Sequence record: PQ362703.1
Source of the DNA: Escherichia phage vB_EcoP_PW8
Strand: one strand, 5' to 3'
Length of the DNA stretch: 64,000 nucleotides
Every line of letters starts with the position of its first letter. Within the stretch, counting starts at the first letter, position 1. This document shows positions 2,604 to 39,293 of this stretch, piece after piece. A program made the translations under genes and the position numbers. Below the pieces are notes generated by a model. That model saw only the letters and a list, made by a program, of their open reading frames with translations, ran no database searches and had not been told where the DNA came from.

Positions 2604-2938
2604 ATAGAGTACTGTATCTCCATCAGTATAAGGATGAAGTCTCTGTTTACTCCGAGAATATCAATGAAGCTATTGAGTGGTTACTACTACAAGACTGTCA
2701 TATGCTTATGCTATCAGGAGATCTAGCAGATAGTACCCGTGGTTCAATTCTTCTACTTAATAGCCCGGCTAAGTTAACCATCCTTAATCCGGGGGAATTC
2801 ATAAAGATACCTGCTGGTGAATCTGCATTCTTGTTCTTTGAACCAAGGATAGAAGAAGGGTTTGTCGGGCTTACTATAGATAGTAGACCTAATAAAGATT
2901 TTAAAAGAGTAAGGATTATATCCCATGAAACTTACTAA
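2600..2938 (+). CDS. small early protein, divergent paralog 4
   Basis: Track ORF 2591..2938 trimmed to ATG at 2600 (ATGA overlap with previous stop); weak copy of motif. Confidence 0.45.
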   Translation: MNRVLYLHQYKDEVSVYSENINEAIEWLLLQDCHMLMLSGDLADSTRGSILLLNSPAKLTILNPGEFIKIPAGESAFLFFEPRIEEGFVGLTIDSRPNKDFKRVRIISHETY

Positions 2939-3251
2939 GATAGGTTATGCTGGTGGACCTATTTCCACTACCCATACAACCTTACAAGACCTTGTGCCAG
3001 GTAGGCTCACTCCTATTATCCTAGTACCGGACGAACAAACACTGCACGAAGTTAAAGGATTAGCTTTATTACTAAACAAGGAGGTTATCGTAGAAGTCCT
3101 TGAACCAGGAAAAGAACTACCATGGTCCTCCTACATGTACTCCCCCTGGCATGTGAATGCGGATAAGTACACTCTTACCTTTGGTATCACAAATGAACTG
3201 CAAACCCCTCACTTGGTATATGCTTCCTCCTATTTATCTGCTTATAAGTAA
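2925..3251 (+). CDS. small early protein, paralog family member 5
   Basis: 108-aa ORF; motif IILVPDEQTLHEVKGLALL. Confidence 0.5.
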   Translation: MKLTKIGYAGGPISTTHTTLQDLVPGRLTPIILVPDEQTLHEVKGLALLLNKEVIVEVLEPGKELPWSSYMYSPWHVNADKYTLTFGITNELQTPHLVYASSYLSAYK

Positions 3252-31149: not shown

Positions 31150-33299
31150 GTATTGACCTGACCGGAGTCACTCACCACGCTGCAATTGAAGAAATTGTAG
31201 ACGTGCTGTGTAACAAGACACAAAACAACGACAGAGGATTCTTCCGTGTCGAAGTAGCCTACTTCCTGGCTAAAATGGCATCCTGCATGGGTGCAACCAT
31301 TGTCACTAAAGACCGTGGTGACTTACCAGTCAACATTTACGCTATGGCATTAGCAACGTCTGGCTTCGGTAAAGGTCACTCGGTAAATATTATTGAAGAC
31401 GGGTTCATGACTGGCTTCCGTAAACGCTTTATGGAAGACACCATGCCCGTCATTGCAAATGACCGTTTATGGAAGATTGCTAACGAACGTGCTGCTCGTC
31501 AGGGTACAGACCAGAATGATGAGTTTGATAAAGTTGAAGCAGAGTATAAACGTGCTGGGGCATACCCGTTTACGTTTGACTCAGGTACTCCACCAGCAGT
31601 TAAACAACTACGTCATAAACTGTTAATGGCTGGGTGTGGTTCAATCAACCTTCAGATTGATGAAATTGGTTCAAACCTGCTGGCTAACACAGACGTACTA
31701 ACCTTATTCCTGGAGCTATATGACCAGGGTAAGGTTAAGCAGAAGCTAACCAAGAACACTGCTGAAAGCGTTCGTGGTGAAGAACTGGATGGTAAGACTC
31801 CAGCTAACCTATTGCTGTTCGGTACACCAAGTAAGCTACTGGATGGGGGTCAGACTGAAGACCAGTTCTATGACTTCCTTGATACGGGGTATGCACGTCG
31901 TTGTCTATTTGCCATTGGGCATTTAGACAAACGAGCACATGCAACAATGTCTCCTGAAGAAATCTACCGTAACCTCATTAAGCAGGATAACGTTCAGTCT
32001 CTAGGTAAGTGGGCTAACCACTTTCATAGTTTGGCTGACCCAAACCTGTTCGGTTTTAAGATGGTTGTGGAAGATGCAGTGGGAATTGCTTTGATTACTT
32101 ACAAAATTGATTGTGAGAAGAAAGCAGAAGCTATGGCTGACCACGAAGAGATTCGTAAAGCTGAAATGTCTCACCGTTACTTCAAAGCTCTTAAACTGGC
32201 AGGTGCATTGGCGTTTGTTGACCAGAGTTCCTTCATTGAGATGTCTCATCTTAAACAAGCAATTCTGCTTGTAGAGGAATCTGGGGCAGCATTCCAGGGT
32301 ATTCTCAATCGTGAGAAAGCCTATGTGAAGCTGGCTAAGTACATTGCTTCTGTAGGTAAAGAAGTGACTCATGCTGATTTACTTGAGTCATTACCGTTCT
32401 ATAAGAGTGGCAATGCAGCTCGTAATGAGATGATGACCCTTGCTACAGCATGGGGCTACAAACAGCACATCATCATTAAGAAAACCTTCAACGAAGGCAT
32501 TGAATTTTTCCGTGGGGAAACTCTGAAAGAAACTGACATCAATGAGATCATAGTGGCATATAGTGATAGCTTTGCCTATGACTACATTGGTGAACGTGTA
32601 CCGTTCGACCAGTTGCATGTATTAACCCAAGCTCCTGGTATGCACTGGGTAAACCATCACATGAAGAATGGGCATCGTTCTGAAGAGAACGTTATTCCAG
32701 GATTTAACATGATTGTTATTGACTGTGATGGTGGAGTACCACTGCATACGTGCCATGAACTGATGAAGGAATATAAGTTCATGACCTATACCACTAAACG
32801 TCATTCCGATGAAGAGAACCGATTCCGACTGATTATTCCAATGAACTATGAGTTACACCTAGACACCGAGGAATACAAAGAGTTCATGAATAACGTTATG
32901 TCTTGGCTACCGTTCGAAACGGATGAATCTGCTAACCAACGAGCCAAGAAATGGATGTCCTGTGAGACTGGTTCTTATCATTACAATCTTGAAGCAAATC
33001 TGTTAGACGTGCGTGACTTTATTCCTCGTACTAGTAAGAACGAGCAGTTCCAGAACCAGATGAAGGAAGTACAGTCGTTGGATAGTCTGGAGCGTTGGTT
33101 CGCTAGTCGTATTGCTACCGGTAATCGTAATAATCAAATGATTAAGTACGCACTGGCATTGGTTGACAGTGGTTGGGATTTTGCCCAAGTACAGCAAGCC
33201 GTACACTCATTCAATAAGAAACTGGCTAATCCATTGCCAGATGATGAATTGAATGCAACCGTAATGGTCACCGTGGCTAAACGCTTCGCTGGCAAGTAA
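31146..33299 (+). CDS. putative DNA primase (primase-polymerase-like C-terminal region)
   Basis: Track ORF 31089 trimmed to ATG Met20 (ATGA overlap); N-terminal P-loop-like TSGFGKGHS; acidic block NMIVIDCDGG; sits between nuclease and recombination genes. Confidence 0.45.
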   Translation: MSIDLTGVTHHAAIEEIVDVLCNKTQNNDRGFFRVEVAYFLAKMASCMGATIVTKDRGDLPVNIYAMALATSGFGKGHSVNIIEDGFMTGFRKRFMEDTMPVIANDRLWKIANERAARQGTDQNDEFDKVEAEYKRAGAYPFTFDSGTPPAVKQLRHKLLMAGCGSINLQIDEIGSNLLANTDVLTLFLELYDQGKVKQKLTKNTAESVRGEELDGKTPANLLLFGTPSKLLDGGQTEDQFYDFLDTGYARRCLFAIGHLDKRAHATMSPEEIYRNLIKQDNVQSLGKWANHFHSLADPNLFGFKMVVEDAVGIALITYKIDCEKKAEAMADHEEIRKAEMSHRYFKALKLAGALAFVDQSSFIEMSHLKQAILLVEESGAAFQGILNREKAYVKLAKYIASVGKEVTHADLLESLPFYKSGNAARNEMMTLATAWGYKQHIIIKKTFNEGIEFFRGETLKETDINEIIVAYSDSFAYDYIGERVPFDQLHVLTQAPGMHWVNHHMKNGHRSEENVIPGFNMIVIDCDGGVPLHTCHELMKEYKFMTYTTKRHSDEENRFRLIIPMNYELHLDTEEYKEFMNNVMSWLPFETDESANQRAKKWMSCETGSYHYNLEANLLDVRDFIPRTSKNEQFQNQMKEVQSLDSLERWFASRIATGNRNNQMIKYALALVDSGWDFAQVQQAVHSFNKKLANPLPDDELNATVMVTVAKRFAGK

Positions 33300-36302: not shown

Positions 36303-36755
36303 ATGCAAATCATTTTGAACCAGTCCGAAGTAGAAGCTGCTGTACAGGCTTATGTTGATGATCAAATCAATCTTGCTGGTGACATTAATATTGTCATCAA
36401 TGCAGATGGTACTGCCTCCGTTGGTATCAACGAAGAGGTGAGTCATGAAGATGACACTCCACCCTTGGTAGAGAAGAAAACTCGTCGTTCCCGTAAAAAC
36501 CCTCAAGAAGCTAAGCATCGTCCGGTAGAACCGGAGCCAGAAGAAGTAGTTGAAGAGGCAAAGGTAGAAGAAACCCAGACCTCTACTGGTGGTCCGAACG
36601 GGAATTCTACGCCGGAACCTGAAGAAGCAGTAGCTGAACCAGAAGCACAAGAAGAAGTTGTGCAGGAAGAGGATATGAAAGAAGACCGTGAGCTTCCTCC
36701 GGAAGAACGACCGGTAACGAAGCCTTCACTGTTCGCTGGCCTTAAACGTAGTTAA
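36303..36755 (+). CDS. acidic Glu/Pro-rich protein
   Basis: 150-aa ORF, C-terminal half dominated by E, P, V. Confidence 0.5.
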   Translation: MQIILNQSEVEAAVQAYVDDQINLAGDINIVINADGTASVGINEEVSHEDDTPPLVEKKTRRSRKNPQEAKHRPVEPEPEEVVEEAKVEETQTSTGGPNGNSTPEPEEAVAEPEAQEEVVQEEDMKEDRELPPEERPVTKPSLFAGLKRS

Positions 36756-36763
36756 TCTGGTAG

Positions 36764-36925
36764 GTGGCTCAGAAGCTGCTGCTATTTGTGGTAGTGTTCG
36801 TAATTCTGATGCTATTGCTTATCAGGATTCTGGACGTGTCGGCTCCATACATAGCATTTATCATCACTGTGCTTATACTTTGGAAACTCAGTGATAAAAA
36901 CGGTGGTGACAAGCCGCCAGAGTAA
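36764..36925 (+). CDS. possible small hydrophobic membrane peptide (53 aa)
   Basis: GTG ORF encoding LLLFVVVFVILMLLLIRIL...; below track cutoff; weak RBS. Confidence 0.25.
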   Translation: MAQKLLLFVVVFVILMLLLIRILDVSAPYIAFIITVLILWKLSDKNGGDKPPE

Positions 36926-37464
36926 CAACAACAACAACCGAACCAGTGGACTTTAATACTCTCCGAAGTCCATTGGTTCAATCTAAACTAAGCGGAAAAG
37001 TTAGCTTTTTCTTGGGTGTAGAACCTGTTGTAGAAAATAAATTATTCCGTAGTGAGTAGTTAATATCGTAAATGATTCTGTTAGAATCCTTTGAGATAGG
37101 AACTCCTATCATAACCTTTCTTAACTTAATCTTTGCCGTATGGCACTGACGCTAGGGGTGGCCCCCCATCCGTCAGGTAGACTATTTTAAGAATGGGTTA
37201 TCTCAGAAAATGTAAAGCAACATTCGGGTTAATCAATGGCCTCTCCCTATAGGGGCCATTTCTGAATCTTAGGCTATATCCCAAAGGTTAGTATCTTTGG
37301 GATAAGGCTTCAGATCCCTTATCAACTAACGCTCATGTTGAGCAAAACATTAACCAATAATGTCGGATAGTTCATTAAGCTATTCATCCAGCATCGAGAT
37401 GTTAGGTCTTACATGCAATATAGGGTATAAAGGGAGGACTCGTCCCCTCCCTCTTATTATAATG

Positions 37465-37534
37465 GTCGGGGTATCACGTAGGCATGTGTAGAAGGTCGCT
37501 ACTTCTCCCGCTGGTTCTAATCCAGCCCCCGACC
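37465..37534 (+). tRNA. tRNA-like element (atypical: short variable loop, weak D stem)
   Basis: 7-bp acceptor GTCGGGG/CCCCGAC, anticodon stem AGAAG/CTTCT with loop GTCGCTA, T arm GCTGG-TTCTAAT-CCAGC. Confidence 0.3.
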
Positions 37535-38322
37535 TACTGACATCCTATCAATGAGTACATTAAGCTAACGTGCGGAGGTTTACACTGTAGCCGGTGTAGG
37601 TGGAGAAGACGGCAGGATAGCTACCTGTGCTTAGTGTACTCTTTGATAGGTTGTGCTATCAAAGTCCAGACGATACCTGAGTGACTTTAAAAACAGATGG
37701 AGCCAGGTGGAATCCCTGGCAATTAATTCAAAGTAGCATTGTACTAATCCATCCCGGAGTTCAAAGGCCAATCATGGAGCAGTGCTACTCTGAATTAGAA
37801 GAATTAAGACGGGTCTGGTGAAGTAGATGGGGTTCGATTCCCTCCGGTAGAGTAATCTACTAGCGTGCTTGGTGCACGAATAAGACTTAATACTGGTGGT
37901 TTGATTCCATCCCCCGTCATCCGAAGTCGCCAGGTACTTATGGCAAACGGGTAGTAACGAACTGGTCATTCGTCAAACGCCCACCTAATTACGAGTCAGC
38001 AAGAACGCCTTCACTTAAACTTAAACAAAAAAGCTTAACGCAATAATTATGTAGGGGTATGTAAGGATTGCGAAGAAGGAGCCAGTTAAAGCCTGGCATG
38101 ACTCACCTAATTGAGGCTGTACTTATGTTCTACAGTAGGTGCACAACACTGGGCTGCTACACCCAGAGGTACAGCCTCACCCTATTACGGGCAATTTAGC
38201 TTAACCTAGTTAAGTAGGTATCATGATTCATTGCTGTAAAATGAGGCTCTTATCAAGCCTCTTCAGACACAGAATCAAGTAAGCTAATGTTGTGGGTATC
38301 TCACAACATGCCCTCCCAATAA

Positions 38323-38398
38323 TACCCGGTAGGCTTAGTGGTAAAGCCCCACTAGTAAACCAGCTAGGACGCAGGTTCGAATCCTGTCCGGGTAACCA
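38323..38398 (+). tRNA. tRNA-like gene with encoded CCA; anticodon arm atypical
   Basis: Acceptor TACCCGG/CCGGGTA, D arm GGCT-TAGTGGTAA-AGCC, T arm GCAGG-TTCGAAT-CCTGT, 3' ACCA; anticodon region folds only as a 4-bp stem with an 8-nt loop. Confidence 0.45.
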
Positions 38399-38403
38399 TT
38401 TAT

Positions 38404-38477
38404 GCCCACTTAGCTTAGACGGGGAAAGCAACCGACTAATAATCGGAAGGTCACTGGTTCAAATCCAGTAGTGGGTA
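38404..38477 (+). tRNA. tRNA gene, apparent anticodon AAU (unusual; assignment uncertain)
   Basis: Acceptor GCCCACT/AGTGGGT, D arm GCTT-AGACGGGGA-AAGC, anticodon stem (A)CCGA/TCGG(A) with loop CTAATAA, T arm ACTGG-TTCAAAT-CCAGT. Confidence 0.5.
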
Positions 38478-38714
38478 CTCATTTAGCAGTAACATAGTCC
38501 TGATTGCATTGCACTCTAAAGACAACACTGGTAAGACAGTCCAGTGGCTGCTATTGTATTGATATTCCCCTCGACGGGAATTTCGCTAGTGAAGGTAACA
38601 CTTAAAAATCCAAACCCACGTCTTACTACTATCGGGCTATCAACCCATGGTCGCTTAACACACTAGTGATAGTAGTTTGACGGACTAGCCTCGTTAGCTG
38701 CGTTAAAGCTACTA

Positions 38715-38744
38715 AGTCCCTCTTCGGAGGGACTTTTTTATTTG
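38715..38744 (+). terminator. rho-independent terminator (TTCG tetraloop)
   Basis: AGTCCCTC-TTCG-GAGGGACT followed by TTTTTTATTT. Confidence 0.7.
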
Positions 38745-38803
38745 AGTATTAATAAACGCAATCATGTTTAAGTACAAACTCAAACCACTCTATGAGGCTA
38801 ATA

Positions 38804-39184
38804 ATGGCAACAGTAAGTAAAGAAGCAATCGAAGCTAAGATTAAGAGCGTTTACTATTTCAATGGTGCTGACGCAGTGAAATCTGCATTCGTTGACCCCT
38901 CTGCACTTCCAGCAGATGATTTGGCTAACCTGGGTCTGACAACCCATTGCATTATCATTCTGGAAAACGACTTCAAAGTGGAAGGTGTATCTGCCTGTGT
39001 TGACCCGGCTATCTATGATGAACAGAAAGGCCGTCAATATGCATATGAAAATGCATTCAATAAGATTTGGGAATTAGAAGGTTACCTGCTACGTCAGGCA
39101 CTGCATGAGAAAGAAGAGACTGCTAAAGCTCTGGCTTCCTTTGCAGAAAACAATACCTGTGACGGTGGTGGTTGTACAATCTGA
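38804..39184 (+). CDS. hypothetical protein
   Basis: Track ORF 38792 trimmed to ATG Met5 with GAGG RBS. Confidence 0.5.
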   Translation: MATVSKEAIEAKIKSVYYFNGADAVKSAFVDPSALPADDLANLGLTTHCIIILENDFKVEGVSACVDPAIYDEQKGRQYAYENAFNKIWELEGYLLRQALHEKEETAKALASFAENNTCDGGGCTI

Positions 39185-39264: not shown

Positions 39265-39293
39265 AAGCCCTCACTAGGAGGGCTTTCTCGTTT
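39265..39293 (+). terminator. rho-independent terminator
   Basis: AAGCCCTC-ACTAG-GAGGGCTT followed by TCTCGTTT. Confidence 0.55.

What the first reader, a model, noticed from the sequence alone, without database searches (positions are those of the whole stretch)
36760..38790. Two-kb ORF-poor, hairpin-dense region with tRNA-like genes that have aberrant anticodon arms
Between the replication module and the vRNAP gene there is about 2 kb with no convincing long ORF but many perfect stem-loops (e.g. 37277-37304 TATCCCAAAG/CTTTGGGATA; 37641-37664 CTTTGATAG/CTATCAAAG; 38113-38179 GAGGCTGTAC...GTACAGCCTC; palindrome CCCTATAGGG near 37247). Two adjacent tRNA-shaped genes (38323-38398 with encoded CCA; 38404-38477) and one weaker candidate (37465-37534) have good acceptor, D and T arms but odd anticodon arms: an 8-nt loop, and an AAU anticodon. 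This could be a phage tRNA cluster with non-standard decoding, tRNA-like decoys, or a replication origin or structured ncRNA locus.
Basis: seen in the sequence. Interest (0 to 1): 0.7.

Follow-up and report, generated by a model that had tools for sequence, protein, structure and literature searches.

The report
Phage island of small RNA genes
The gene-poor 1.7 kb stretch of this N4-like coliphage carries one unusual isoleucine tRNA, several tRNA look-alikes that cannot decode, and at least five other conserved folded RNAs that other phage families share and nobody has described.

Summary
The window is a Gamaleyavirus (G7C/N4-like) phage. About 37060-38745, on the + strand, has no conserved ORF and folds more than its flanks. 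It sits where phage N4 keeps its tRNA genes.

The three tRNA-shaped genes differ:
- 38404-38478 is a sound tRNA-Ile. Its stems are kept by compensatory changes, its loop CUAAUAA never varies, and its anticodon AAU (A34) is unusual.
- 38323-38398 keeps acceptor, T arm and an encoded CCA, again with compensatory changes. Its anticodon arm differs between phages and has an 8-9-base loop without U33, so it is a tRNA-like RNA, not a decoder.
- 37464-37535 is decaying.

The rest is a mosaic of cassettes, and most hairpins belong to covariation-supported RNAs:
- E (37663-37720), a 58-nt two-hairpin motif. It occurs in more than 120 viral contigs from unrelated phages and prophages and is not in Rfam.
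- F (37808-37919), a five-helix tRNA-like RNA with two T-loops, also found in a T4-like phage.
- D, I2, K and B.

My best reading is a stable-RNA operon running from a conserved sigma-70-like promoter (37060-37087) to a strong terminator (38714-38745). No origin signals were found. The functions of the non-tRNA RNAs are unknown. Decoys against tRNA-cutting defences, or binders of host factors, are inferences only.

The parts
36764..36925 (+). Small conserved ORF (53 aa, hydrophobic). A flanking gene, not part of the RNA island.
   Evidence: phrog_19025, E = 9e-10. The block is conserved as far as N4.
36940..36979 (+). 15-bp hairpin just after the small ORF. An RNA 3' stabiliser or processing hairpin is inferred.
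   Evidence: z = -6.6. The stem covaries among relatives: GUGGAC/GUCCAU, GUCCCC/GGGGAU, GUGUGCAGG/CCUGUGCAU.
36946..37059 (+). Truncated remnant of the small gene gp47.2. It is intact in St11Ph5, G7C and others, and replaced by an HNH homing endonuclease in ZQ2.
37060..37087 (+). Sigma-70-type promoter-like site, TTAATA-16-(TG)T-TAGAAT (extended -10). Candidate start of the RNA operon.
   Evidence: The sequence is nearly invariant in 12 Gamaleyavirus genomes. Its function is inferred.
37095..37462 (+). RNA 'B', about 365 nt. It has a 5' hairpin (37095-37110), further hairpins at 37115-37196, 37235-37260 and 37266-37322, and ends in a terminator-like hairpin (37431-37452) with a U-rich tail.
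   Evidence: Its 3' half (37295-37465) aligns at about 67% identity with an unannotated gap in phiEco32-like phages. There are stop codons in all frames and indels that break the reading frame, and the hairpins covary, for example GAUAAGG/CCUUAUC against GAUAGGA/UCCUAUC.
37464..37535 (+). Decaying tRNA-like gene ('tRNA-Ala(CGC)'). It has U37 and a T-loop of UUCUAAU.
   Evidence: It falls below Rfam's tRNA threshold, and its best match is tRNA-Sec at 29 bits. Four homologues carry uncompensated mismatches in the D, anticodon and acceptor stems.
37544..37650 (+). RNA 'D'. A stem of about 22 bp (CCUAUCAAUGAGUACAUUAAGC / GCUUAGUGUACUCUUUGAUAGG) closes two hairpins.
   Evidence: One search shows compensatory changes against phage Pollock (a different subfamily) in the long stem and in GCAGG/CCUGU -> GCAAG/CUUGU. 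(z = -2.2).
37641..37664 (+). Perfect 9-bp hairpin at the junction between D and E. It exists only in the genomes that lack the roughly 270-nt cassette relatives carry there.
37663..37720 (+). RNA motif 'E'. Hairpin P1/P2 (AGUC-CAGA-CGAUA-UCUG-AGU-GACU), a conserved A-rich linker (UUUAAAAACAGAUGGA), then hairpin P3 (GCCAGG-UGGAAUC-CCUGGC). This copy has an A-C mismatch in P2.
   Evidence: 98.5% of cells are paired, and 0 of 500 shuffles reach the observed covariation. One P1 pair is seen as C-G, U-A, G-C and A-U. The model scores the window copy at 80 bits. There is no Rfam family.
37724..37797 (+). Long hairpin 'I2' (stem of about 18 bp) whose interior varies between phages and contains a T-loop-like remnant.
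   Evidence: z = -4.8. U-G to U-A changes keep the stem in relatives. (repeat D1).
37808..37919 (+). tRNA-like RNA 'F'. A 6-bp acceptor-like stem (GACGGG/CCCGUC, then A) encloses four hairpins. The first and last carry T-loops (UUCGAUU, UUUGAUU). There is no anticodon-type loop.
   Evidence: 25 pairs are 99% paired, 13 of them with changes on both sides, and 0 of 500 shuffles reach this. A homologue lies between tRNA-Met and tRNA-Arg of the T4-like phage VR25. F is not T4 rnaC or rnaD.
37921..38109 (+). Conserved block 'G'. It includes a hairpin at 38040-38075 (CGCAAU...AUUGCG) whose loop carries UAUGUAGGGGUAUGUAAGG, and a hairpin at 38078-38100 (GGAGCCAG...CUGGCA) that resembles P3 of E.
   Evidence: the closing stem covaries, CGCAAU/AUUGCG against CGUAG/CUACG. 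The loop motif is shared with phage DS8. (repeat D5).
38112..38179 (+). Hairpin 'I4' (a 13-bp perfect stem plus an inner hairpin). A rare cassette.
   Evidence: z = -2.9. It is found in only one other phage record and one IMG/VR contig.
38192..38322 (+). Segment unique to this phage, with three short hairpins (among them GAGGCU/AGCCUC and AUGUUGUG/CACAACAU).
   Evidence: No match in 50,697 phage records..
38323..38398 (+). tRNA-like RNA 'TL1'. Acceptor UACCCGG/CCGGGUA, A73, encoded CCA, normal D and T arms. The anticodon arm is replaced by a hairpin with an 8-nt loop, UAAACCAG (6 nt if U-G closes it), and there is no U33.
   Evidence: Acceptor and T stems are 100% paired, with 5 pairs changed on both sides across 5 phage lineages. 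The loop differs between lineages: CAGGCAUG, AACUUAAGA, GACUUAAGA.
38404..38478 (+). tRNA-Ile with anticodon AAU (loop CUAAUAA). CCA is not encoded.
   Evidence: (64.8 bits). All 20 pairs are kept in 9 genomes, 3 of them with compensatory changes, and the loop is invariant.
38486..38602 (+). RNA 'K'. A 66-nt core (stem GCAGU/GGCUGC closing two hairpins) followed by two covarying hairpins (38564-38581, 38588-38602).
   Evidence: It is conserved in N4 and in KP8-like phages. 6 pairs have changes on both sides.
38619..38682 (+). Long imperfect hairpin 'I7'.
   Evidence: z = -4.0.
38714..38745 (+). Intrinsic terminator (9-bp stem, UUCG loop, U-run). The end of the RNA operon.

Best explanation
Window 37060-38745 (+ strand) is a stable-RNA gene island. 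It is the counterpart, in this G7C-like phage, of the tRNA cluster that N4-like phages carry at the end of their rightward gene block.

It is built from interchangeable cassettes: one decoding tRNA, tRNA-like RNAs and other small structured RNAs. Most likely it is transcribed as one or two precursors, from the conserved sigma-70-like promoter at 37060-37087 to the terminator-like hairpin at 37431-37452 and on to the strong terminator at 38714-38745.

The precursor is then cut into individual RNAs. The tRNA-shaped units would serve as RNase P and 3'-trimming signals, and the long hairpins as RNase III-type processing or stabilising elements.

Products:
1. tRNA-Ile(AAU). It probably gives Watson-Crick reading of AUU, the phage's commonest Ile codon.
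2. TL1 and F. These keep the acceptor/T-arm body of a tRNA but have no usable anticodon loop, so they act as tRNA mimics rather than adaptors.
3. B, D, E, I2 and K, whose roles are unknown.

Shown here: homology of position, lack of coding capacity, RNA-level conservation of structure on the + strand, cassette mosaicism, and sharing with unrelated phages.

Inferred: transcription from the named promoter, the processing route, charging of the tRNA, and every function.
For: - Position. N4 has Asn, Ser, Thr and Pro tRNAs in the same gp47-gp48 gap. Other relatives have Tyr/Asn/Asp/Gly or Asn/Pro/Gln. The KP8 paper reports six tRNA genes at the end of the first cluster, two of them unidentified (PMC6950046).
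- Not coding. No ORF is conserved. The match to phiEco32-like phages has stops in all frames and frame-breaking indels. Four of the five small ORFs inside the island that were scanned match no PHROG family. The fifth, 37360-37488, matches a 40-aa family of unknown function (phrog_37481, E = 6.6e-14), but that stretch is not conserved as a reading frame in the phiEco32-like match.
- RNA structure counted:
  - E: 98.5% paired, 5 pairs with changes on both sides.
  - F: 99% paired, 13 of 25 pairs.
  - K: 6 pairs.
  - tRNA-Ile: 100% paired, 3 pairs.
  - TL1: 100% paired, 5 pairs.
- RNA structure seen in alignments only: D, I2, B and the 36940 hairpin.
- Strand. Frequent G-U pairs on the + strand would be C-A mismatches on the other strand.
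- Extra folding compared with the flanks.
- A conserved promoter-like site and a strong terminator.
- In phage DS8 a similar island, sharing E and the UAUGUAGGGG loop motif in the same order, starts at a near-consensus sigma-70 promoter and ends at a terminator.
- Cassette mosaic.
- Codon usage: AUU 63%, AUC 29%, AUA 9% of Ile codons.
- By my reading of the sequence against the published E. coli tRNA-Ile identity set (recalled, Nureki et al. 1994), the tRNA has A35, U36, A37, A38, A73, C4-G69, U12-A23 and C29-G41.
Against: - No expression data were available, so transcripts, ends and processing are all inferred.
- The promoter match is weak in its -35 hexamer. The scan as a whole finds no more promoter-like sites than chance (5 found, 5.0 expected).
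- It is unknown whether host RNA polymerase or the phage's own middle polymerase reads this stretch.
- Some parts look like debris rather than genes: the decaying tRNA-Ala-like gene, the truncated gp47.2 and the unique 38192-38322 segment.
- The window's copy of E carries an A-C mismatch seen in none of the 35 other sequences.
- The sequences within Gamaleyavirus are 90-95% identical, so covariation there rests on few events. The shuffle control does not correct for relatedness.
- An unmodified A34 is rare in bacterial decoding. Whether this tRNA is charged or edited is unknown.
Confidence: 0.72

Rival explanations
1. A graveyard. The region is a tRNA cluster in decay, and the tRNA-like genes and hairpins are pseudogenes and recombination scars with no function of their own.
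For: - The tRNA-Ala-like gene collects uncompensated mismatches.
- Cassettes come and go between close relatives. One segment is unique to this phage.
- gp47.2 is truncated here.
- Canonical tRNAs sit at this locus in N4 but are mostly missing here.
- An HNH homing endonuclease sits in the region in ZQ2.
Against: - Compensatory changes keep the stems of E, F, K, D, TL1 and tRNA-Ile.
- The unpaired bases of E and K are nearly invariant across subfamilies that share only about 69% protein identity in the neighbouring gene.
- E, F, TL1, B and D are also found in unrelated phage families. Debris would not be shared like this.
Confidence: 0.12
2. DNA-level element. The hairpin-rich stretch is a replication origin, or a site where DNA hairpins are recognised, as N4 virion RNA polymerase promoters are.
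For: - It lies between the replication genes and the vRNAP gene.
- It has many inverted repeats.
- Cumulative GC skew peaks near 38000.
Against: - There is no AT-rich dip. GC content is 0.41-0.47, the same as the flanks.
- There are no iterons and no DnaA boxes.
- The skew change coincides with the switch in gene orientation.
- G-U pairs are abundant and work on one strand only.
- The same cassettes sit in tRNA clusters or early operons of phages with quite different replication systems.
- The conserved hairpins have loops of 5-9 nt, not the 3-nt loops of N4 early promoters (recalled, not tested further).
Confidence: 0.04
3. Non-standard decoding. TL1, with its 8-nt loop, is a quadruplet-reading or frameshift-suppressor tRNA used in phage gene expression.
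For: - Expanded anticodon loops are the hallmark of frameshift-suppressor tRNAs (established knowledge).
- The tRNA body and the CCA end are kept.
- The SABI and 05F01 homologues contain CUUAAGA, a Leu-type loop sequence, inside a 9-nt loop.
Against: - No homologue has U33 in the right place.
- The loop sequence and size differ completely between lineages (UAAACCAG, CAGGCAUG, AACUUAAGA), while the body stays about 75-80% identical.
- The G-to-A change at the last loop base in IME11 keeps a U-G/U-A pair. That would shrink the loop to 6 nt.
- ARAGORN calls it only at lowered thresholds, as tRNA-???.
Confidence: 0.04
4. Hidden small protein genes. Related records annotate several 'hypothetical proteins', and even an 'anti-CRISPR protein', over this stretch.
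For: - Annotated CDS lie under the matches in many records.
- ORF 37360-37488 hits phrog_37481 (E = 7e-14).
Against: - That ORF lies in the part shared with phiEco32-like phages, where no reading frame is conserved.
- The other ORFs of 30-60 aa have no family. They overlap tRNA genes or covarying stems.
- Annotators disagree from record to record.
Confidence: 0.05

Closest known systems
tRNA gene cluster of phage N4 and other Enquatrovirinae (between gp47 and gp48)
   Same: Same genomic slot, strand and flanking genes. Blocks E and K are shared with N4 at 78-88% identity.
   Different: N4 carries four canonical tRNAs (Asn, Ser, Thr, Pro). This phage has only one decoding tRNA, with an A34 anticodon, and otherwise carries tRNA-like and other RNAs. 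None of the non-tRNA elements is annotated in N4.
T4 tRNA region with the stable RNAs rnaC and rnaD (species 1 and 2) and the homing endonuclease segB
   Same: A phage tRNA operon that also encodes small stable RNAs of unknown function and is invaded by a homing endonuclease (an HNH gene in ZQ2). F has a homologue inside the tRNA region of a T4-like phage.
   Different: There is no sequence similarity between rnaC or rnaD and anything in the window. F is a third, separate RNA in VR25.
Phage tRNAs with altered anticodon loops that escape tRNA-cutting defences (van den Berg et al. 2023, PMC10264068, cited; T5 tRNA-Lys against PARIS, PMC11464382; retron and tRNA-Tyr, PMC11555353)
   Same: Phage-encoded tRNA-shaped RNAs whose differences from host tRNAs are concentrated in the anticodon arm.
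   Different: Those are working tRNAs with point changes. TL1 and F have no usable anticodon loop at all, so they could only be decoys, not replacements. No defence system was tested here.
HK022 put RNA (a cis-acting two-stem-loop antiterminator of about 70 nt downstream of PL and PR; PMC9378689)
   Same: E is a two-hairpin RNA of similar size with many conserved unpaired bases. In temperate phages it lies downstream of the cI-like repressor, early in the leftward operon.
   Different: A covariance model of E finds nothing at the put sites of HK022. E is not followed by intrinsic terminators more often than chance (9 of 104 loci). E also occurs in tRNA clusters and late operons.
tmRNA (SsrA)
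   Same: Relatives, though not this window, carry a tag-like reading frame next to the same cassettes: GCA AAC GAU GAU GUU GUU CUG AUG GCN GCN UAA (ANDDVVLMAA). It has the resume-codon context, and the two final Ala codons vary synonymously.
   Different: No tRNA-like domain with G3-U70 was found. Rfam tmRNA scores of 31-33 bits stay under the gathering score of 47. ARAGORN calls it only at 70% thresholds. The module is absent from the window.

Membership tests
Canonical tRNA (Rfam RF00005): 38404-38478 | Cloverleaf that scores above the Rfam gathering threshold and is called by ARAGORN at default settings | tested here: met
   64.8 bits against a gathering score of 29. ARAGORN calls tRNA-Ile(aat).
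Canonical tRNA (Rfam RF00005): 38404-38478 | 7-nt anticodon loop with U33 and a purine at position 37 | tested here: met
   The loop is C32 U33 A34 A35 U36 A37 A38 and is invariant in 9 genomes.
Canonical tRNA (Rfam RF00005): 38404-38478 | Stems maintained by selection | tested here: met
   20 pairs are 100% paired, 3 of them with compensatory changes.
Canonical tRNA (Rfam RF00005): 38404-38478 | Wobble base of a kind used by bacterial decoding (G, C, U or modified; A34 only in tRNA-Arg ACG, edited by TadA) | tested here: not met
   The anticodon is AAU. Whether A34 is edited to inosine cannot be told from sequence.
Canonical tRNA (Rfam RF00005): 38404-38478 | Aminoacylation and use on the ribosome | not testable with these tools
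   Only the match to the recalled E. coli Ile identity set could be read from the sequence.
Canonical tRNA: 38323-38398 (TL1) | Acceptor, D and T arms | tested here: met
   40.7 bits. Acceptor and T stems are 100% paired across 5 lineages. CCA is encoded.
Canonical tRNA: 38323-38398 (TL1) | 5-bp anticodon stem and 7-nt loop with U33 | tested here: not met
   Rfam leaves the 18-nt arm unaligned. The loop is 8 nt (UAAACCAG) in the window and 8-9 nt in homologues, with no U33.
Canonical tRNA: 37464-37535 | Scores above threshold, with stems kept in relatives | tested here: not met
   Below the Rfam tRNA threshold. Mismatches in relatives are uncompensated. It has U37 and an aberrant T-loop.
tmRNA | Tag reading frame with a resume codon | tested here: not met
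   In the window nhmmer finds only the 5' boundary sequence of the relatives' tag module. No AN...AA tag frame is present.
tmRNA | Alanine-accepting tRNA-like domain (G3-U70, T arm, CCA) | tested here: not met
   None of TL1, F or D has G3-U70. ARAGORN finds no tmRNA.
HK022 put antiterminator RNA (for element E) | Sequence or structure homology to putL or putR | tested here: not met
   The best hit of model R1 in the HK022 genome has E = 0.55 and lies at 33021, not at PL or PR.
HK022 put antiterminator RNA (for element E) | Acts on RNA polymerase to read through terminators | not testable with these tools
   Indirect test only: intrinsic terminators are not enriched downstream of E.
T4 rnaC / rnaD stable RNAs | Sequence similarity | tested here: not met
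   BLAST finds only chance words of 8-14 nt.
Replication origin | AT-rich unwinding element, iterons or initiator boxes | tested here: not met
Intrinsic terminator (38714-38745) | GC-rich hairpin followed by a U-run | tested here: met
   9-bp stem, UUCG loop, then TTTTTTATTT.

The most novel reading that the evidence does not exclude
The island is an arsenal of host-directed RNAs.

TL1 and F would be tRNA mimics that soak up tRNA-targeting immune nucleases, or other proteins that bind the tRNA body.

E is a 58-nt motif kept almost letter for letter in N4-like, phiEco32-like, 9NA-like and DS8-like phages and in lambdoid prophages of Enterobacterales. It would be a new class of regulatory RNA that binds a conserved host machine, such as RNA polymerase (against Rho on untranslated transcripts), the ribosome, Hfq or CsrA.

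In relatives the same island would also supply a phage-made tmRNA-like tagging RNA.
Probability: 0.2. Interest if true: 0.85.

Novelty: new variant of a known kind. Interest (0 to 1): 0.62.

Why it matters
Phage tRNA clusters are usually listed and then ignored. Here most of the 'cluster' is not tRNA.

It holds at least seven conserved folded RNAs with no family in Rfam 15. I found no mention of them in the papers searched. Several have been exchanged between phage families that otherwise share nothing.

- Element E alone is in more than 120 viral contigs and in prophages of seven Enterobacterales species, always unannotated.
- A natural, well-conserved bacterial-virus tRNA with A34 (Ile-AAU, and Cys-ACA in relatives) bears on how far unmodified A34 is tolerated in E. 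coli decoding.
- tRNA look-alikes that keep the acceptor/T body and CCA but have lost the anticodon loop are natural candidates for decoys. This is timely because many tRNA-cleaving defence systems are now being found.

All of this can be tested directly with small-RNA sequencing and cassette deletions in an easy E. coli phage.

Tried and rejected
- **Rfam.** Gathering and permissive scans of the window found only the tRNAs. Permissive scans of 9 related loci added only sub-threshold tmRNA_permuted matches. The minus-strand 'Plastid-ycf2' hits are tRNA antisense artefacts. STnc100 matches only the terminator.
- **E as HK022 put.** No hit with the covariance model.
- **E as an antiterminator placed before intrinsic terminators.** No enrichment downstream: 9 of 104 loci, against 12 on the antisense control. 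The 44 upstream are the repressor gene's terminators.
- **E as a small ORF (AUG GAG CCA...).** Rejected, because some copies lack the AUG and P3 covaries.
- **F as T4 rnaC or rnaD.** No similarity.
- **ARAGORN's relaxed fold of F (acceptor GAUGGGG/CCCCGUC) and of D as tRNAs.** Relatives do not support them and were replaced by covariation-supported folds.
- **Block G as a degenerate copy of the relatives' tag module.** It has GCAAACG and AGUCAGCAAG at similar spacing, but nhmmer gives no support.
- **A tRNA-like domain for the relatives' tag RNA.** None is convincing.
- **Origin signals.** None found.
- **Literature.** Searches for the E sequence, for N4/G7C small RNAs and for phage tmRNA-like RNAs gave nothing relevant. 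One search failed on a short search term.
- **First z-score script.** It timed out and was rerun.


Full report
**Identity and setting**

The window is a Gamaleyavirus (G7C-like member of the N4-like Schitoviridae). The stretch matches 92 phage records at 80-99% identity, nearly all Escherichia, Shigella or Klebsiella N4-like phages, but always in several pieces.

The finding lies between the homologue of N4 gp47 (36303-36755) and a gp48-like ORF (38792-39184). It is upstream of the 3458-aa virion RNA polymerase gene, which is on the other strand.

In N4 the same gp47-gp48 gap is 1.5 kb of unannotated DNA. ARAGORN finds tRNA-Asn, Ser, Thr and Pro there. Other relatives carry Tyr/Asn/Asp/Gly or Asn/Pro/Gln. 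The KP8 paper mentions six tRNA genes at this position, two of them unidentified (PMC6950046). So the locus is the family's tRNA slot.

**The observation**

So are the three tRNA-shaped genes.

The region folds more than its flanks. The mean z-score of 120-nt windows is -1.94 inside against -0.88 outside (p = 0.004). Several single hairpins have z between -4 and -6.6.

The left edge needs trimming. 36764-36925 is a conserved small membrane-type ORF. 36946-37059 is the remnant of the small gene gp47.2, which is intact in relatives and replaced by an HNH homing endonuclease in ZQ2. The non-coding part is about 37060-38745.

**The three tRNA-shaped genes are three different things**

1. 38404-38478 is a good tRNA, scoring 64.8 bits.
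   - In nine Gamaleyavirus genomes all 20 stem pairs are kept. Three pairs show compensatory changes: C2-G71 to U2-A71, and two pairs of the anticodon stem.
   - The loop CUAAUAA never varies, so the AAU anticodon is selected, not an error.
   - By my reading, the sequence has the recalled E. coli tRNA-Ile identity set: A35, U36, A37, A38, A73, C4-G69, U12-A23 and C29-G41.
   - AUU makes up 63% of Ile codons in the window's long ORFs. An A34 tRNA would read it by a Watson-Crick pair.
   - Relatives also have a tRNA-Cys(ACA), so A34 seems to be a habit of this group.
2. 38323-38398 (TL1) has a tRNA body and an encoded CCA.
   - Homologues occur in about 20 Gamaleyaviruses, in KP8-like phages, in the phiEco32-like Enterobacter phage SABI (directly after tRNA-Gln) and in Klebsiella phage 05F01.
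   - Acceptor and T stems are 100% paired, with five pairs changed on both sides.
   - The anticodon arm is a hairpin of unrelated sequence in each lineage. Its loops are UAAACCAG, CAGGCAUG, AACUUAAGA and GACUUAAGA, and none has U33 in place.
   - It is therefore a conserved tRNA-like RNA that cannot decode in the normal way.
3. 37464-37535 ('tRNA-Ala(CGC)') is below the Rfam threshold. Its four known versions carry uncompensated mismatches in three stems. It looks like a decaying gene.

**The rest of the region is a mosaic of cassettes**

The block borders are at about 37054, 37460, 37652, 37662, 37729, 37920, 38110, 38320, 38400, 38484 and 38620. Close relatives differ by the presence or absence of blocks. 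One piece, 38192-38322, has no match in 50,697 phage records.

Most blocks are structured RNAs on the + strand.

*Element E (37663-37720)*

E is the most striking block.
- It is 88-98% identical in all N4-like phages examined, including ones whose neighbouring gp46 protein is only 69% identical.
- It also occurs in phiEco32-like phages, Salmonella phage 9NA, Shigella phage DS8, Klebsiella phage SopranoGao, many temperate Klebsiella and E. coli phages, and 15 E. coli chromosomes.
- It is in more than 120 IMG/VR contigs and in seven Enterobacterales species genomes.
- An alignment of 36 distinct copies supports two hairpins. 98.5% of cells are paired, and one pair is seen as C-G, U-A, G-C and A-U. 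Four of the five pairs in the second hairpin change on both sides. No shuffle out of 500 reaches the observed covariation score or percentage paired.
- The loop CGAUA, the bulge AGU and the linker UUUAAAAACAGAUGG(G)A are almost invariant.
- Rfam has no such family. The sequence was not found in the paper library.
- In temperate phages E lies on the same strand as a cI-like repressor gene, about 300 nt downstream of it. It sits upstream of rdgC or of a 197-aa protein. In one E. coli prophage it is about 480 nt after an operator-flanked promoter. That is the place where lambda has nutL and HK022 has putL.
- However, a covariance model of E finds nothing at the HK022 put sites. Intrinsic terminators are not enriched downstream of E.
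- Its function is therefore open. The window's copy has one A-C mismatch in the first hairpin.

*Element F (37808-37919)*

F is a 111-nt tRNA-like RNA. A six-pair acceptor-like stem encloses four hairpins, and the first and last of these carry T-loop sequences.
- Twelve distinct sequences give 99% pairing. 13 of 25 pairs change on both sides.
- One of the twelve comes from the T4-like phage VR25, where F sits between tRNA-Met and tRNA-Arg.
- F is not T4 rnaC or rnaD, both of which VR25 also has.

*The other RNAs*

- D (37544-37650) is a 22-bp stem closing two hairpins. It shows compensatory changes against phage Pollock.
- I2 (37724-37797) is a long hairpin kept through U-G/U-A changes.
- K (38486-38602) is a 66-nt core plus two hairpins. 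It is conserved as far as N4, with six pairs changed on both sides.
- B (37095-37462) ends in a terminator-like hairpin. Its 3' half is shared with phiEco32-like phages, where stops in all frames and frame-breaking indels rule out coding while the hairpins covary.
- G (37921-38109) contains a hairpin whose closing stem covaries. Its loop motif UAUGUAGGGGUAUGUARGG is shared with DS8.

Frequent G-U pairs in all these stems work only on the + strand.

- 37641-37664 exists only in genomes where D is fused directly to E. In other relatives a cassette of about 270 nt lies between them.
- 37277-37304 overlaps a differently paired hairpin that covaries with the phiEco32-like homologue.

**Transcription signals**

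- A sigma-70-type site with an extended -10 (37060-37087) follows the gp47.2 stop codon directly. It is nearly invariant in 12 genomes.
- A terminator-like hairpin closes B (37431-37452).
- A strong intrinsic terminator closes the island (38714-38745).
- In DS8 a similar island, sharing E and the G loop motif in the same order, runs from a near-consensus sigma-70 promoter to a terminator.
- Origin-type signals are absent.

**How it most likely works**

The island is read as one or two untranslated precursors and cut into stable RNAs. This is inferred, by analogy with T4 and bacterial tRNA operons.

The tRNA-shaped units (37464, F, TL1, tRNA-Ile) bracket the other modules. They would recruit RNase P and 3' trimming. 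The long hairpins (D stem, I2, I4, I7, 37266-37315) have the size of RNase III substrates or 3' stabilisers.

The tRNA-Ile(AAU) probably supplements reading of AUU. TL1 and F keep what RNase P, the CCA enzyme, T-loop modifiers and many tRNA-binding proteins recognise, but have nothing to decode with. A role as mimics or decoys fits the growing list of tRNA-cutting defences, but it is untested. For B, D, E, I2 and K I can offer no more than 'conserved structured RNA'.

**Seen in relatives but not in this window**

Between D and E, most N4-like phages, Pollock and DS8 carry a module with the frame GCA AAC GAU GAU GUU GUU CUG AUG GCN GCN UAA (ANDDVVLMAA).
- It is preceded by a tmRNA-like resume context.
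- Its last two Ala codons vary only synonymously.
- Rfam's permuted-tmRNA model scores it 31-33 bits, below the gathering score of 47.
- I found no alanine-type tRNA-like domain.
- The window has lost this module.

**Verdict**

The kind of feature, a phage tRNA/stable-RNA operon, is known. Its content is not: an A34 tRNA-Ile, two families of non-decoding tRNA-like RNAs, and several unnamed RNA motifs shared across phage families, one of them very widespread. As far as Rfam 15 and the searched literature show, these are undescribed.

Noticed in passing
L001 2495-2527, L003 2577-2609, L010 7053, L012 7767, L015 7201, L016 7022, L021 7419, L210 (Pollock) 1662, L086 (DS8) 1687. Absent from the window.: A tmRNA-like tag frame, GCA AAC GAU GAU GUU GUU CUG AUG GCN GCN UAA (ANDDVVLMAA, or ANDNVVLMAA), with a resume-codon context. 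The two final Ala codons vary only synonymously. Rfam's permuted-tmRNA model scores it 31-33 bits (gathering score 47). No alanine-type tRNA-like domain was found. Possibly a phage-made tagging RNA or a mimic of one.
   Followed up: partly
L088 3002-3059 (E. coli prophage); L089-L207 (IMG/VR); L213-L219 (Kosakonia, Pantoea, Rahnella, Citrobacter, Leclercia, Phytobacter): In temperate phages, element E lies about 300 nt downstream of a cI-like repressor gene on the same strand, and upstream of rdgC or a 197-aa protein. This is the slot where lambda has nutL. It has no homology to HK022 put and no excess of downstream terminators.
   Followed up: partly
L086 1806-1894 and 2060-2135; L087, L088 3061-3129, L089, L003 about 2700-2790: A family of long imperfect hairpins with the conserved base ACAAC-A[GU]GAAAGCGC ... 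GCGCUUCCAGUUGU. They flank E in prophages and in some N4-like phages. In L118 one is followed directly by a tRNA-Arg(UCU). Their nature is unknown; RNase III-type processing sites are a guess.
   Followed up: no
L209 (T4-like phage VR25) 1487-1590: An unannotated homologue of tRNA-like RNA F lies between tRNA-Met and tRNA-Arg. This is in addition to the rnaD and rnaC homologues at 1682-1945.
   Followed up: yes
L010 7180-7258 and L001 2620-2699: Relatives carry a tRNA-Cys with anticodon ACA, a second A34 tRNA in this phage group. It lies immediately upstream of E.
   Followed up: no
L003 about 2868-2935 and 2938-3060; L001 2765-2832 and 2835-2958: Two further tRNA-like units with an encoded CCA (UUCCGGUG...CGCCGGAACCA and UUACCAGU...ACUGGUAACCA) follow E in relatives. 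The second holds the word UUGGACUAAG, which I recall also occurs near the 3' domain of E. coli tmRNA.
   Followed up: no
window 38046-38069 and L086 2285-2312: The motif UAUGUAGGGGUAUGUARGG sits in the loop of a hairpin whose closing stem differs between phages. It is tandemly repeated in DS8.
   Followed up: partly
window 38192-38322: A 130-nt segment with three short hairpins has no match in 50,697 phage records. It is a cassette unique to this phage.
   Followed up: partly
L002 (phage ZQ2) 1768-2265; window 36946-37059: An HNH homing endonuclease occupies the gp47.2 slot in ZQ2. In the window gp47.2 is truncated by a deletion. This echoes segB in the T4 tRNA region.
   Followed up: partly
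window 39265-39285: A bidirectional terminator-like hairpin (AAGCCCTCACTAGGAGGGCTT) lies between the gp48-like ORF and the next small ORFs, upstream of the convergent vRNAP gene.
   Followed up: no
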